Shown here piece by piece: positions 29,071 to 31,550 of a stretch of DNA of 64,000 bases. The DNA is from a virus (lineage: Duplodnaviria > Caudoviricetes). The stretch covers positions 1,525 through 65,524 of the IMG/VR virus record IMGVR_UViG_3300025508_000012; one strand, given 5' to 3'. The translations under genes were made by a program, and so were the position numbers. A model generated the notes under the pieces. It ran no database searches. It was not told the DNA's origin and saw only the letters and a program-made list of their open reading frames with translations. How positions within the stretch are numbered: position 1 is the first letter of the stretch; each line of letters opens with the position of its first letter.

Positions 29071-29253
29071 CTATAAAAAAATTTTATTTCTATTTTTCAG
29101 GGAGGGATACTTTATGCTAAGTAGCCCCTACCATGTCCCAAACTTTTACATACCCCTGTAACTTGTATTGGACATTCATAGCATTTTTGCGTAATGCCTG
29201 CACGCAATCGTGCTATCTATCTAATAGCGGGCTCACTTAATACATTTATAATT

Positions 29254-29601
29254 ATGTCATTCATTAAAGACGTTAAAGTTGGCTACCAAGCCTTAGGTTC
29301 ATTACTAAAAGAAAGCGGAGAGTTCCGTAAAGACTATGCAATGGGTATCATTGACATTCCAATTGCTGTAACTAAAGCAGCTGTTGATATAATAGATACT
29401 AAAGTTGGCTCTACACAACGTAGATATAACATAGCTAATGCAGTAAATGAGCGTATGTTAGAGAAATATGGCGACGAAATCTCTCAAGTTAACAAAGATA
29501 TTCGTAGTATGATGAAAGATTTAATGGCTTCACGTGTAAGTAAGTCATACAACACCAATGACTCTAAAACTACTGAATATACTGAGTTTACAATGGCATA
29601 A
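29254..29601 (+). CDS. First early gene, hypothetical (likely start 29254 MSFIKDVK)
   Basis: AT-rich leader TTATAATT before ATG; upstream extension overlaps a structured element. Confidence 0.6.
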   Translation: MSFIKDVKVGYQALGSLLKESGEFRKDYAMGIIDIPIAVTKAAVDIIDTKVGSTQRRYNIANAVNERMLEKYGDEISQVNKDIRSMMKDLMASRVSKSYNTNDSKTTEYTEFTMA

Positions 29602-29756
29602 GACTGTCAAGTAACTGAGTATCAATAGATTAAGCGGAAACACCTTGAAATAGTGCGCTATAGTGTTTAGATTATTTATTTAAGTAAGTAACTATGCTGG
29701 ACTTGTAGTCAGGTTGGTTTGTTATTGTTTGGTTAATAATAGTAACATTCCAATTT

Positions 29757-29780
29757 GGCCTCAAAGTTCGGCTTTTTTTT
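29757..29780 (+). terminator. Weak intrinsic terminator candidate
   Basis: GGCC...GGCT short stem followed by a T-run. Confidence 0.4.
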
Positions 29781-29797
29781 AGACAAAGTCAAGTCAT

Positions 29798-29850
29798 ATC
29801 TGTCCACAAATGAGTATTTGTGCTGATGAGTTCAAAAGAACGAAACAGAT
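29798..29850 (+). ncRNA. Type III hammerhead ribozyme
   Basis: Stem III ATCTGT/ACAGAT; GTC cleavage triplet (cut after 29804); stem I CACAAAT-GAGT-ATTTGTG; core CTGATGA; stem II GTTC-AAAA-GAAC; core GAAA. All conserved core nucleotides present; intergenic. Confidence 0.93.
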
Positions 29851-29889
29851 TTATTAATTAACAAAGTCCTGGTAACAGGCATTAAAATT

Positions 29890-30141
29890 ATGGACAACTA
29901 TATTGTTCCTGTAAGAAGATTTGGTAAAGCAACGCACGTTGTTGTAGGTATGATAGCTGATTTAAATGAACCCGAAGTAGTTCATTATCTTCCGTTAGAG
30001 TCTGAATGTAGCTTAACAAACTTTGATACAGAGTTTATGAAAGAAATCATCTACTGTAGTGAGTTTGATTGGTATAGGCTTAAATTAAAAATGAGCTTTG
30101 AAGAACACGTGATGTTGCGCCAATCGCAACTCAACAAATAA
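29890..30141 (+). CDS. Early hypothetical protein downstream of hammerhead
   Basis: ORF with AT-rich leader. Confidence 0.6.
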   Translation: MDNYIVPVRRFGKATHVVVGMIADLNEPEVVHYLPLESECSLTNFDTEFMKEIIYCSEFDWYRLKLKMSFEEHVMLRQSQLNK

Positions 30142-30182
30142 CCTGTATTGGATGTAGTGTGGTTCGATTCCACACACAGGTA
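30141..30182 (+). ncRNA. tRNA-like top-half mini-element (acceptor-like stem plus T-arm, no anticodon arm)
   Basis: ACCTGT/ACAGGT stem, 10-nt linker ATTGGATGTA, GTGTGG-TTCGATT-CCACAC T-arm. Confidence 0.6.
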
Positions 30183-30240
30183 CTAACTTGCCCGAACACG
30201 TGATGGGCCACCAACAATAGGTGATTGGCGTGTAATAACT

Positions 30241-30501
30241 ATGAGAACTAGAATTAAGTCTCGCAAAGTATCAAGCGCTCCAGCTTGGATCAAAAAGTAT
30301 CAACCTGCACACACAGCAACAGCTGATGAAATAGTGCAACGATACATTAACAATGAACTTATGTTCGTGCCAAAATCTAATAGAAGCGCAGAACTAAAGA
30401 AGTTCATTACAAAGAAATGGTTACACAATATTAAAGTACTAAACAAATTAGTAGACAAATATGTAGCAACCGAAACGTTTAACCCAATATCAGTATTATA
30501 A
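30241..30501 (+). CDS. Early basic hypothetical protein
   Basis: ORF track; tight operon packing. Confidence 0.6.
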   Translation: MRTRIKSRKVSSAPAWIKKYQPAHTATADEIVQRYINNELMFVPKSNRSAELKKFITKKWLHNIKVLNKLVDKYVATETFNPISVL

Positions 30502-30503
30502 TT

Positions 30504-30785
30504 ATGAAACAGAATCAATTTACGGCTAAGTATATCAAGGCATATACTAAACCAAACGGTAAAAATATCATTCGATTCTCTGACGAGAATGGTAAACAAC
30601 GTATGATAATAGTCAACAAAGTTGAGAAAGCAGAACTGCCCAAGTTACACCATTGGTACAACTGGGCTAACATATGCAAGATGAAGAACGTTACGGATAA
30701 CTTCCGTGCGTTCCTCAAAAAGCATTGCAGCTTTAAACAGATTGATGGCTATACTAACGTAACTTATATAATGAATTTAAAATAA
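30504..30785 (+). CDS. Early hypothetical protein
   Basis: ORF track; tight packing. Confidence 0.6.
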   Translation: MKQNQFTAKYIKAYTKPNGKNIIRFSDENGKQRMIIVNKVEKAELPKLHHWYNWANICKMKNVTDNFRAFLKKHCSFKQIDGYTNVTYIMNLK

Positions 30786-30792
30786 TAATAAA

Positions 30793-31041
30793 ATGACTAA
30801 TACATTAAAACAGAACCTTGAGCTACGCCAGGCGTTGGCTGAGGTAGATAGATTAACATCAGAAAATGTTGAGCTAAAAGAAATGCAAAAAGATTTGAAA
30901 GATGATGTGAATAGGTTAACTAAAGAACAATCTATTAATCTTGATATAATACAAACGCAAAAAAAAAGACTTCGCAATAACGAAGTTATGCTCAGATCTC
31001 ACGAAAGAGATATAACGTATTATAAAAATCAAATAAAATAA
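30793..31041 (+). CDS. Early coiled-coil protein
   Basis: Heptad-rich sequence. Confidence 0.6.
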   Translation: MTNTLKQNLELRQALAEVDRLTSENVELKEMQKDLKDDVNRLTKEQSINLDIIQTQKKRLRNNEVMLRSHERDITYYKNQIK

Positions 31042-31097
31042 TTAACCAGTACTCTAAAAACAAGGAACCCTTGAGTGCTTATAATAGGGAAACCAAT

Positions 31098-31550
31098 ATG
31101 AAAACTAATGAAATTAGAATCTATTTGCTGAACGATAGATCGGCACTAGACAACAAAGGTATTGAACTAGAATACCTAGAAGCAGCAACATCAGATAAAA
31201 AGTGGGACGAGTTCCTACTGTCTGATAAATATGACGATCTGCTTGCAGCAGTCAAAGCTAACCCATACGAAAGAGCTCACCAAGCATTTCGTAGAGAAGA
31301 AGCACATACGATCATTAAATCAGTTAATAAAGCTGAAATGAAAGTAACAATGCTAGACGGTCAAACCCGTAGAGCAAAGTTCTTTGATAACAATTTCTTC
31401 AAAATGGAAAAGTGGATCGAAGATCAGAACGCTTCATATAATAAACGCAAGCGTAAGTTCATAAATACTTACCTCGCTAAGTTTAAGAAGAAACAGATTA
31501 GTAACTTCCACATAGCTAGTAATAAGCTTGGAGATTTCTTACAGAAATAA
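31098..31550 (+). CDS. Early hypothetical protein (likely start 31098 MKTNEIR)
   Basis: In-frame ATG after a structured intergenic element. Confidence 0.6.
   Translation: MKTNEIRIYLLNDRSALDNKGIELEYLEAATSDKKWDEFLLSDKYDDLLAAVKANPYERAHQAFRREEAHTIIKSVNKAEMKVTMLDGQTRRAKFFDNNFFKMEKWIEDQNASYNKRKRKFINTYLAKFKKKQISNFHIASNKLGDFLQK

What the first reader, a model, noticed from the sequence alone, without database searches (positions are those of the whole stretch)
29190..31100. Dense cassette of structured RNAs punctuating the first early genes: a possible RNA-processing system
Seen: within about 1.9 kb the large intergenic gaps are filled with structure. These are a three-way junction (29196-29232), an AAACAC/GTGTTT plus GCG/CGC element (29634-29668), hairpins with a U-tract (29697-29780), the hammerhead, a tRNA-top-half mimic (30141-30182), a pseudoknot (30190-30233) and an H-type pseudoknot (31048-31089). 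The rest of the early block is tightly packed with no such elements, and I saw no intergenic TAnnTTTG promoter here. Inference: an early polycistronic RNA is cut by a ribozyme and by host tRNA-processing nucleases, then protected by 5' structures, giving post-transcriptional control in place of promoters.
Basis: inference. Interest (0 to 1): 0.78.

Follow-up and report, generated by a model that had tools for sequence, protein, structure and literature searches.

The report
Structured RNA leaders punctuating phage early genes
The gaps between the first early genes of this aquatic crAss-like phage hold real, conserved RNA folds (a self-cutting hammerhead, a stripped-down tRNA look-alike, a long hairpin and several pseudoknots) that most likely cut and shape one long early message into single-gene units.

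Summary
Of the seven listed elements, five are real as drawn: the long hairpin with a U-run, the type III hammerhead (44.1 bits, below Rfam's cut-off of 48.5, core intact), the tRNA acceptor/T-arm minihelix, the pseudoknot at 30190-30233, and the AAACAC/GUGUUU helix. Each is conserved, and all but the hairpin show compensatory changes in relatives. The pseudoknot at 31048-31089 has one covarying stem and one invariant stem. Only the outer helix of the "three-way junction" survives; it fits better as another H-type pseudoknot (29189-29232).

In related phage contigs the hammerhead and the minihelix sit in the same slot, between a conserved 13-nt junction and the pseudoknot. The ORFs between modules are swapped.

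The minihelix belongs to a family absent from Rfam 15 and found in many unrelated viral contigs:
- 93% of cells are paired, against 59% in shuffles.
- In 17 of 27 cases it starts within 13 nt of a same-strand stop codon.
- It is often multi-copy on one strand.

Best reading (about 0.55): RNA punctuation of an early polycistronic transcript by ribozyme or host RNase P/Z. The pseudoknots, set 7-8 nt before two start codons, would then shape the new 5' ends or translation. No RNA ends were available, so cleavage is inferred.

This scan has noted the same minihelix/hammerhead theme on other phage DNA.

The parts
29189..29232 (+). Leader pseudoknot PK0. Helix A is GCGU (29189-92) with ACGC (29202-05). 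Helix B is GCCUGC (29196-201) with GCGGGC (29227-32). It ends 21 nt before the ATG at 29254.
Evidence: In 8 homologous leaders both helices are fully paired. Helix B has 4 variants (GCCUGC/GCGGGC, ACCUGC/GCAGGU, GUCUGU/ACAGAC, GUCUGC/GCAGAC) and helix A has 5. MFE z is -0.24 and -0.40.
29254..29601 (+). First early ORF (115 aa), function unknown.
   Evidence: ORF list. No Pfam or PHROGs family.
29633..29668 (+). Element E1. AAACAC (29638-43) pairs with GUGUUU (29663-68), crossing AGCG (29633-36) with CGCU (29656-59): a possible H-type pseudoknot. No ORF follows it.
   Evidence: In 13 relatives the AAACAC/GUGUUU helix is 100% paired, and 2 of 6 pairs are compensatory (A-U to U-A in 4 rows, C-G to A-U in 4 rows). 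AGCG/CGCU is invariant.
29696..29780 (+). Long imperfect hairpin (29696-29772) followed by U8 (29773-29780): intrinsic-terminator-like, or a 3'-end stabiliser.
   Evidence: -36.7 kcal/mol, z -7.9, 0 of 200 shuffles as good. Three diverged relatives keep a long hairpin plus U-run, z -4.3, -6.3 and -8.5.
29783..29795 (+). Conserved 13-nt junction ACAAAGTCAAGTC, the upstream border of the variable slot.
   Evidence: Present, with at most one change, in all 13 aligned relatives. The sequence diverges right after it.
29797..29851 (+). Type III hammerhead ribozyme. The predicted cut is after C29804, so the 3' product starts with the stem I hairpin.
   Evidence: RF00008 44.1 bits, E 9e-8, GA 48.5; it is the only match in the whole genome. 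Five distinct versions in relatives show compensatory changes in stem II (GUUC/GAAC to GUUU/AAAC) and stem III (A-U to U-A).
29868..29879 (+). CCUG-GUAA-CAGG tetraloop hairpin in the leader of ORF83.
   Evidence: MFE z -1.7. It is kept in L126 in front of a different ORF. With only two sequences this is weak.
29890..30141 (+). ORF83, a variable cargo gene between the hammerhead and the minihelix.
   Evidence: It is absent or replaced by other small ORFs in relatives. No family hit.
30141..30181 (+). tRNA-like minihelix (TL). It has an acceptor-like stem (A)CCUGU/ACAGG(U), a 10-nt linker AUUGGAUGUA, a 6-bp T-stem and the T-loop UUCGAUU. It starts on the last base of the ORF83 stop codon.
   Evidence: Alignment of 30 instances: 93.3% of cells paired against 59.2% in shuffles (0 of 500 reach it) and 45-52% when slid; 11 of 13 pairs change on both sides. 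ARAGORN finds no tRNA and Rfam has no family over it.
30190..30233 (+). Pseudoknot PK1. P1 is GCCC/GGGC. The P1 loop ACACG pairs with CGUGU (30229-33). Hairpin CACC/GGUG is embedded. It ends 7 nt before the ATG at 30241.
   Evidence: 14 sequences: 88.1% paired against 77.1% in shuffles (0 of 500) and 22-36% when slid. 6 of 12 pairs change on both sides, at least one in each helix. The pseudoknot helix switches from ACACG/CGUGU to GUAAG/CUUAC.
30241..30501 (+). ORF86, the gene led by TL and PK1.
   Evidence: ORF list. In L027 and L029 the same TL+PK1 leads a homologue of the 31098 ORF instead.
31048..31089 (+). Leader element PK2. Stem 1 is AGUACUC/GAGUGCU. The possible stem 2 is CCCU (31068-71) with AGGG (31086-89). 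It ends 8 nt before the ATG at 31098.
   Evidence: In the 8 relatives' versions stem 1 shows G-C to A-U at one pair and U.G, C-G and U-A at another. Stem 2 is invariant. The element precedes a different ORF in L046 and is missing before the homologous ORF in L097. MFE z -1.2.
31098..31550 (+). ORF150, the gene led by PK2.
   Evidence: ORF list. No family hit.

Best explanation
The first 2 kb of the early, rightward block is a set of portable RNA modules transcribed as part of a long early RNA. That RNA is probably made by the virion RNA polymerase, because host-type promoters are missing.

Two modules act as cut sites.
- The type III hammerhead cleaves itself after C29804.
- The tRNA top-half minihelix is recognised by host tRNA-processing enzymes: RNase P at its 5' side, which here is the last base of the ORF83 stop codon, and/or RNase Z at its 3' side.

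The cuts would separate the upstream RNA, which ends in the long hairpin or in a coding region, from the next cistron.

The new 5' ends would be structured. One carries hammerhead stem I with a 5'-OH. The other carries the pseudoknot PK1, which ends 7 nt before the AUG. PK2 ends 8 nt before its AUG. These structures would set the stability and/or the translation start of the single-gene messages.

Shown here: the structures, their covariation, the slot exchange, the strand-specific placement of the minihelix after stop codons, and the lack of host-type promoters. Inferred: the cleavage itself, the enzymes, and what the pseudoknots do.
For: Hammerhead. The core and all three helices are intact at 44.1 bits, with compensatory changes in stems II and III among 5 versions.

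Minihelix family.
- Covariation score is 0.92 against 0.22 in shuffles.
- The acceptor-like stem was not part of the search pattern, yet 24 of 34 distinct hits have 5 or more contiguous pairs. Only 4% of mismatched controls do.
- The usual 6-bp acceptor-like stem plus 6-bp T-stem gives a 12-bp stack, as in a tRNA top half.

Same slot. The junction ACAAAGTCAAGTC is followed by hammerhead then PK1 in L021, L023 and L125, and by minihelix then PK1 in L016, L017 and L114. The window and L126 have both, with an ORF between them. Among complete relatives, G001 has the hammerhead and no minihelix, and G002 has the reverse.

Placement. 17 of 27 minihelices start -5 to +13 nt from the end of a same-strand ORF. 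The figure is 4.7% for random positions and 0 of 27 on the opposite strand. There are up to 5 same-strand copies per locus in other phage contigs.

Promoters. There is no + strand TANNTTTG from 27673 to 36887.

Conservation. The non-coding E1-hairpin block is more conserved than the flanking genes: 88, 88 and 91% against 70-73% in L012, L027 and L029.

Precedents.
- t-elements direct RNase P/Z cuts at mitochondrial mRNA ends (PMC1920247, passages read).
- The crAss-like phage phi14:2 makes abundant early RNAs from long intergenic gaps, and no common motif was found upstream of its early transcripts (bioRxiv 10.1101/2020.03.07.982082, passages read).
Against: - No RNA 5' or 3' ends were seen; only contigs of RNA libraries were available.
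- The hammerhead is under Rfam's gathering score.
- The minihelix has no CCA.
- The hairpin plus U8 might stop transcription, so the downstream modules could start new transcripts rather than be cut out of one.
- In L004/L006 and L027/L029 a small ORF follows the hairpin with no cut module in front of it.
- Three complete relatives (G003-G005) have neither hammerhead, minihelix nor PK1, so the modules are dispensable.
- E1 precedes no ORF.
- The fixed 7-8 nt spacing between PK1 and the AUG in 14 of 14 sequences suggests translation control rather than mere end protection.
Confidence: 0.55

Rival explanations
1. The pseudoknots, and perhaps the minihelix, are translation devices. A compact fold placed 7-8 nt upstream of the AUG would replace a Shine-Dalgarno helix, or act as an operator or riboswitch-like sensor, for early genes in a host that does not use Shine-Dalgarno pairing. 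Cleavage would be secondary or absent.
For: - The spacing from the 3' end of PK1 to the AUG is 7-8 nt in 14 of 14 sequences. This includes diverged PK1 versions and different downstream ORFs.
- PK2 ends 8 nt before its AUG.
- Loop nucleotides such as ACAAUA are conserved.
Against: - No Rfam riboswitch or leader family matches at E up to 10.
- PK0 lies 11-21 nt from its AUG.
- E1 has no ORF behind it.
- This does not explain why a self-cleaving ribozyme and a tRNA mimic swap places upstream of PK1.
Confidence: 0.2
2. The conserved blocks are mainly recombination linkers, comparable to the promoter/stem-loop cassettes of T4-type phages. Their shared sequence lets small early ORFs be shuffled, and any RNA role is incidental.
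For: - The region is a mosaic. ORFs between the conserved modules are inserted, deleted or replaced.
- The L126 hammerhead is a chimera: its 5' flank matches the L023 type and its 3' flank matches the window type.
- PeSL cassettes are a precedent (PMC2839356 and PMC4122927; search listing and start of abstracts only).
Against: Compensatory changes keep the helices in the minihelix, PK0, E1, PK1, PK2 stem 1 and the hammerhead. This shows selection on RNA pairing, not only on sequence identity. The two roles are compatible.
Confidence: 0.12
3. The elements act at the DNA level, as hairpin promoters for the virion RNA polymerase (as in phage N4) or as replication or packaging signals.
For: - The early block has no host-type promoters.
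- The phi14:2 virion polymerase prefers single-stranded templates, and no common motif was found upstream of its early transcripts.
- A small CUGA-UUA-UCAG hairpin with a 3-nt loop precedes E1 in most relatives.
Against: - The hammerhead and the T-loop minihelix are RNA motifs.
- The minihelix family is tied to the coding strand (0 of 27 on the other strand) and occurs in unrelated contigs with local GC from 28% to 70%.
- Crossing helices covary in PK1.
Confidence: 0.05
4. E1 plus the long hairpin and U-run is a separate, stable early small RNA of about 150 nt with its own function, such as a decoy or regulator. The hammerhead or minihelix would only trim its 3' side.
For: - The 185-186-nt block has a fixed length and 89% mean column identity across 13 relatives.
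- phi14:2 accumulates abundant non-coding early RNAs from intergenic gaps.
Against: - L033 and L046 keep the minihelix and PK1 but lack E1 and the hairpin.
- No promoter or 5' end is defined.
- No Rfam family matches.
Confidence: 0.08

Closest known systems
Type III hammerhead ribozymes flanking genes in prophages and phages (Rfam RF00008; Perreault et al. 2011, PMC3088659, passages read)
   Same: The catalytic core, three-helix layout and open stem III are the same. So are the intergenic position in a phage transcription unit and the proposed role of cutting long phage transcripts into gene-length mRNAs.
   Different: There is a single copy in this genome, not a cluster. It scores 4.4 bits under the Rfam cut-off. 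In relatives it is exchangeable with a tRNA mimic and sits directly in front of a pseudoknot.
t-elements of plant mitochondria and the mitochondrial tRNA punctuation model (Forner et al. 2007, PMC1920247, passages read)
   Same: Both are a tRNA-like fold with the GGTTCRANYCC T-arm motif lying at the borders of coding regions. In t-elements this directs RNase P and RNase Z cuts that make mRNA ends.
   Different: The element here has only the acceptor-like stem and T-arm, joined by a conserved 10-nt linker (AUUGGAUGUA). It has no D or anticodon arm. It occurs in phages and is a sequence family of its own, absent from Rfam 15. Its cleavage has not been shown.
RNase III processing of the phage T7 early polycistronic mRNA (recalled, no paper read here)
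   Same: A host nuclease cuts structured intercistronic sites of an early polycistronic transcript, and hairpins are left at the 3' ends.
   Different: The signals differ (ribozyme and tRNA mimic instead of RNase III duplexes), and so do the phage group and host phylum.
HDV-like theta ribozymes next to phage tRNAs (Kienbeck et al. 2024, PMC10879173; search listing and start of abstract only)
   Same: Both are a pseudoknotted element directly 3' of a tRNA-shaped element in a phage.
   Different: PK1 has only 4 nt where an HDV-like fold needs P3/L3. No HDV-like Rfam model matches.
tmRNA: a tRNA-like domain followed by pseudoknot 1 and a reading frame. ARAGORN calls one in crAss-like phage phi14:2 at 4031-4500; Rfam scores it 46 bits against a cut-off of 47.
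   Same: Both have an acceptor/T-arm mimic without an anticodon arm, then a pseudoknot a few nucleotides before the first codon of an ORF. Both lie in the early region of a crAss-like phage.
   Different: The minihelix here is contiguous and internal and has no CCA end. ARAGORN and Rfam find no tmRNA in the window. The downstream ORFs are ordinary genes with AUG starts.
PeSL promoter/stem-loop cassettes of T4-type phages (PMC2839356, PMC4122927; listing and start of abstracts only)
   Same: Both are conserved non-coding cassettes between small early ORFs, at the borders of inserted, deleted or replaced genes.
   Different: The cassettes here are RNA folds with covariation (ribozyme, tRNA mimic, pseudoknots), not promoter-terminator pairs.

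Membership tests
Hammerhead ribozyme, type III (RF00008) | Conserved core: CUGAUGA box, GAAA box and an NUH cleavage triplet | tested here: met
   CUGAUGA, GAAA and GUC (29802-29804) are all present and aligned to the model.
Hammerhead ribozyme, type III (RF00008) | Three helices around the core, with stems I and II closed by loops and stem III open | tested here: met
   The model alignment covers positions 1-54 of 54 and the MFE fold gives the same three stems. Compensatory changes occur in stems II and III.
Hammerhead ribozyme, type III (RF00008) | Score at or above Rfam's gathering threshold | tested here: not met
   44.1 bits against 48.5. The E-value is 9e-8 for the 2.4 kb searched.
Hammerhead ribozyme, type III (RF00008) | Self-cleavage | not testable with these tools
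   This needs in vitro transcription or end mapping.
Canonical tRNA | Cloverleaf with D arm and anticodon arm | tested here: not met
   ARAGORN finds 0 genes in the window. No RF00005 match at E up to 10. Only a 10-nt linker lies between the acceptor strand and the T-stem.
tRNA-like processing signals (t-element type) | T-arm with the GGTTCRANYCC motif (as used by Forner et al.) | tested here: met
   GGTTCGATTCC at 30161-30171.
tRNA-like processing signals (t-element type) | Acceptor-like stem stacked on the T-stem, kept by covariation | tested here: met
   All 7 acceptor pairs and 4 of 6 T-stem pairs change on both sides; 93.3% of cells are paired.
tRNA-like processing signals (t-element type) | Ends of the element coincide with RNA termini made by RNase P or RNase Z | not testable with these tools
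   Only contigs of RNA libraries were on hand.
HDV-like / theta ribozyme | Nested double pseudoknot with P3/L3 between the P2 5' strand and the P1 3' strand | tested here: not met
   Four nucleotides lie at that place in PK1. No HDV-like Rfam match at E up to 10. The fold layout is recalled, not taken from a call.
Intrinsic terminator | Stable hairpin directly followed by a U-run | tested here: met
   29696-29772 at -36.7 kcal/mol, then U8. Termination itself is not testable here.
tmRNA | Recognised by ARAGORN or RF00023, with a tag reading frame and a CCA-ending acceptor | tested here: not met
   None in the window. Elsewhere the minihelices give only 15-17-bit partial T-arm matches to RF00023.
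VIPR vrRNA arrays | Alternating GGY/NN units (abstract of bioRxiv 10.64898/2026.04.26.720920) | tested here: not met
   No run of 3 or more units on the + strand of the window. There is one 3-unit run on the - strand, outside the region.

The most novel reading that the evidence does not exclude
The minihelix and PK1 work together as a tmRNA-like or IRES-like start device. The tRNA top half docks on the ribosome or on a tRNA-binding factor. The pseudoknot, fixed 7-8 nt upstream, places the AUG. Early genes could then start translation without a Shine-Dalgarno sequence in a Bacteroidota host. The hammerhead version would reach the same end by exposing PK1 at a fresh 5' end.
Probability: 0.06. 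Interest if true: 0.9.

Novelty: new variant of a known kind. Interest (0 to 1): 0.66.

Why it matters
If the cuts are real, crAss-like and many other phages divide their early messages with interchangeable parts, either a ribozyme or a borrowed host tRNA-processing step. Until now that arrangement has been described for organelles.

- It would give a testable answer to how early genes are expressed in crAss-like phages, whose early promoters and abundant early non-coding RNAs are unexplained.
- It defines RNA families that Rfam 15 does not match: the minihelix, and the leader pseudoknots PK0, PK1 and PK2.
- It offers compact processing modules for engineering in Bacteroidota.

Tried and rejected
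**Database searches that found nothing**
- Rfam at gathering scores found nothing in the window and nothing in seven relatives' loci. It found only tRNAs and a tmRNA in 12 loci that carry minihelices.
- ARAGORN found no tRNA or tmRNA in the window.
- blastn of 28900-31300 against 50,697 phage records gave no match.
- Pfam and PHROGs gave no family for the six small early ORFs. Pfam gave none for the 2910-aa ORF.
- The search for related loci with the 150-aa ORF gave only 7 loci.

**Fits that failed**
- RNAalifold on the E1-hairpin block gave almost no covariation term (-0.28). I attribute this to the conserved apical stem of the long hairpin and to the lower stems of the most diverged rows differing by indels. 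I therefore folded three variants singly instead.
- PK1 does not fit an HDV-like/theta fold.
- The cassette does not fit a VIPR array.
- ACAAAGTC is not a recurrent early motif. There are 7 matches in the window, 2 of them in the cassette, and 1 of 100 shuffles reaches 7.
- The sigma-70-type promoter scan gave no more sites than shuffles did (18 against 16.8).

**RNA evidence**
- The look-up of sequencing runs listed 2 runs on record as RNA, each holding 0.06 of the sampled words, and 2 runs guessed to be RNA.
- Read laying gave contigs only. In the metatranscriptome run X19 one 204-nt contig lies on 29866-30066 and two lie on 31032-31200.
- No joints were reported and no places where many molecules begin or end. 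This shows neither transcription nor cleavage.

**Literature**
- Hammerhead + crAss-like + ribozyme: 0 papers.
- tRNA-like / bacteriophage / RNase P / mRNA processing / minihelix: 14 papers, and none of the 12 listed concerns phage minihelices.
- A 2026 preprint on non-coding clusters has no occurrence of 'tRNA-like', 'minihelix' or 'T-loop'.

**Rows dropped**
- The minihelix alignment A1 used 30 of 40 distinct instances found by a regex. Ten were left out: L083, L085, L086, L087, L088, L099, L103, L116, L117 and L119. They have 0-2 flanking acceptor pairs.
- The context test used 27 of those 30. L029, L046 and L126 were left out as near-duplicates.

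
Full report
**Setting**

The window is most of a 65.5-kb virus record rated 98% complete. Structural genes run leftward up to 29065, among them a portal and a large terminase (PHROGs). A block of small ORFs runs rightward from 29254.

The terminase's nearest named relatives are Crassvirales and phages of Flavobacterium, Cellulophaga and Bacteroides. 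All are below 60% identity, and the 12 listed are at 27-29%. So this is a distant, small-genome crAss-like phage.

The six small early ORFs next to the elements have no Pfam or PHROGs family. The + strand has no TANNTTTG between 27673 and 36887. One such motif on the - strand at 29063-29070 faces the leftward genes.

**Are the elements there?**

Single-sequence folding supports only some of them:
- long hairpin 29696-29772 plus U8: z -7.9
- minihelix: z -2.0
- hammerhead: z -1.55
- the four pseudoknot-type elements: not distinguishable from shuffles, as expected for folds that MFE programs cannot draw.

Rfam at gathering scores finds nothing and ARAGORN finds no tRNA. At relaxed thresholds the only meaningful match is Hammerhead_3 at 29797-29851. 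It scores 44.1 bits (cut-off 48.5, E 9e-8) and covers the full model, with CUGAUGA, GAAA and GUC intact. It is the only match in the genome.

**Relatives**

A terminase search brought 80 of 237 related viral loci. Pattern searches added more. blastn and direct reading show a mosaic.

All relatives of the window's subgroup share a 185-186-nt non-coding block. It holds E1, an A/U-rich spacer, the long hairpin and the U-run, and ends in the junction ACAAAGTCAAGTC. Mean column identity is 89%. The block is better conserved than the flanking genes: 88-91% against 70-73% in L012, L027 and L029.

After the junction comes a variable slot:

| Contigs | Content of the slot |
|---|---|
| L021, L023, L125 | hammerhead, then PK1 |
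| L016, L017, L114 | minihelix, then PK1 |
| L012, L120 | small hairpin, minihelix, PK1 |
| L004/L006, L027/L029 | small ORF, minihelix, PK1 |
| window, L126 | hammerhead, GUAA hairpin, an ORF (different in the two), minihelix, PK1 |

More distant relatives (L033, L046) lack E1 and the hairpin. They keep a diverged minihelix and a diverged PK1 right after their first ORF.

Of five complete relatives, one has the hammerhead without the minihelix and one has the reverse. Three have neither, and those three also lack PK1.

**Covariation**

Minihelix. Thirty instances were aligned.
- 93.3% of cells are paired, against 59.2% in shuffles (0 of 500 reach it) and 45-52% when the partner is slid.
- 11 of 13 pairs change on both sides.
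- The search pattern fixed only the linker and T-loop region. The acceptor-like stem is therefore an independent result: 24 of 34 distinct hits have 5 or more contiguous pairs, against 4% of mismatched controls.
- The usual form is a 6-bp acceptor-like stem on a 6-bp T-stem, the 12-bp stack of a tRNA top half. The linker is AUUGGAUGUA and the T-loop is UUCGAUU.

PK1. Fourteen sequences were aligned.
- 88.1% of cells are paired, against 77.1% in shuffles (0 of 500) and 22-36% when slid.
- 6 of 12 pairs change on both sides, with at least one in each helix.
- All unpaired cells come from the two mis-registered distant rows.
- The crossing helix switches from ACACG/CGUGU to GUAAG/CUUAC in one lineage.

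E1. The AAACAC/GUGUUU helix has two independent compensatory pairs. AGCG/CGCU never varies.

PK0. Together they give an H-type pseudoknot. The inner arms he drew are not conserved.

PK2. Stem 1 covaries, and stem 2 is invariant in all 9 versions, window included. The element precedes a different ORF in L046 and is absent before the homologous ORF in L097.

Hammerhead. Five versions show GUUC/GAAC to GUUU/AAAC in stem II and an A-U to U-A change in stem III. There is also a U-to-A change at the core position that I recall as the tolerated one. L126 is a chimera of two versions.

**The minihelix as a family**

No Rfam family covers it. It occurs in many unrelated viral contigs with local GC from 28% to 70%.

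In 17 of 27 cases a same-strand ORF of at least 40 aa ends -5 to +13 nt before it. The figure is 4.7% for random positions in the same loci and 0 of 27 when read on the other strand. In the window it begins on the last base of the ORF83 stop codon.

A covariance model finds further copies that were not in the training set. There are up to five per locus, always on one strand, a few hundred bases apart.

The strict pattern hits only 6 stretches in one genome each of 185,579 prokaryote species. Three of those are minihelices.

**Mechanism**

The simplest account of a self-cleaving ribozyme and a tRNA top-half mimic swapping in one slot is that both are cut sites. That slot sits between a hairpin that could cap an upstream RNA and a pseudoknot that leads the next gene.

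Two precedents support this:
- mitochondrial t-elements cut by RNase P and RNase Z (PMC1920247).

In phi14:2, early genes are transcribed by the virion polymerase, and no common motif was found upstream of those transcripts. Its long intergenic gaps give abundant early RNAs.

The role of the pseudoknots is open. PK1 ends 7-8 nt from the AUG in 14 of 14 sequences, whatever ORF follows, and PK2 ends 8 nt from its AUG. That argues for a role at the translation start as much as for end protection.

Nothing here shows cleavage. The RNA libraries that hold parts of the region are available only as contigs.

**Against, and limits**

- The hairpin plus U8 may end transcripts.
- Some relatives put a small ORF behind the hairpin without any cut module.
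- Three complete relatives do without all of these modules.
- E1 has no ORF behind it.
- The block downstream of 31100 is not free of structure. Gaps of 100, 90, 129 and 307 nt follow, and the three I folded hold hairpins with z of -2 to -3.

**Earlier notes of this scan**

Several notes on other phage genomes describe the same theme of tRNA-like minihelices and hammerheads at gene borders, and some report the same slot exchange. They are unchecked AI notes. I used them for two leads, the t-element paper (read) and VIPR arrays (tested and excluded), and not as support.

**Verdict**

The cassette is real and conserved. The processing idea is the best-supported reading but remains unproven.

The hammerhead is a known kind. 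The minihelix family and the leader pseudoknots match no Rfam 15 family. The two literature searches aimed at this turned up no description of phage minihelices; I did not search the literature for the pseudoknots.

Noticed in passing
L129 (NC_021806, Cellulophaga phage phi14:2) 4031-4500: ARAGORN calls a tmRNA with tag peptide GSSVQKLAMVA. Rfam RF00023 gives 46 bits against a cut-off of 47. It lies in the long gap before g006. This may be one of the two abundant early non-coding RNAs that the phi14:2 paper left unexplained. I did not map the paper's gene numbers onto the record.
   Followed up: partly
window 29101-29111 (GGGAGGGATAC) and the flanking A/T runs, in the divergent gap 29066-29253: This motif is kept in the same place in distant relatives (L033, L046, L063), whose leaders are otherwise different. 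It is a candidate early promoter or another DNA signal at the switch between leftward and rightward genes.
   Followed up: partly
L086, L087, L088, L099, L103, L116, L117, L119 (positions): A second class shares the AUUGGAU linker and T-arm. Its acceptor strands are separated by a long arm that ends in a 7-nt anticodon-like loop (CUUCUAA or CUUCUAC in the cases I read, L086 and L103). In L088 and L103 it lies directly beside a tRNA gene, and in L117 about 370 nt from a large tRNA cluster. ARAGORN does not call these elements. They could be tRNAs without a D arm.
   Followed up: no
window 31571-31600: A 12-bp hairpin (GCAUAGUGGUAU...) sits in the 100-nt gap before the ORF at 31651; the gap folds with z -3.0. 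Two further gaps (31912-32001 and 33124-33252) also fold better than shuffles. A 307-nt gap at 34014-34320 was not examined.
   Followed up: partly
L094, L095 (IMG/VR contigs unrelated to the window): Five and four same-strand copies of the minihelix lie within about 3.5 kb and 1.1 kb respectively. These are dense arrays between small ORFs.
   Followed up: partly
window 29000-31200, public runs: DNA runs labelled freshwater or marine metagenome hold 84-100% of the sampled words. At least three of their studies are not flagged as the possible source (P9, P10, P11). The phage or near-identical strains therefore recur in aquatic samples.
   Followed up: no
window 29614-29626: A small hairpin with a 3-nt loop (CUGA-UUA-UCAG in most relatives, weaker in the window) lies just after the first ORF's stop codon and before E1. 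Three of its four pairs never vary.
   Followed up: partly
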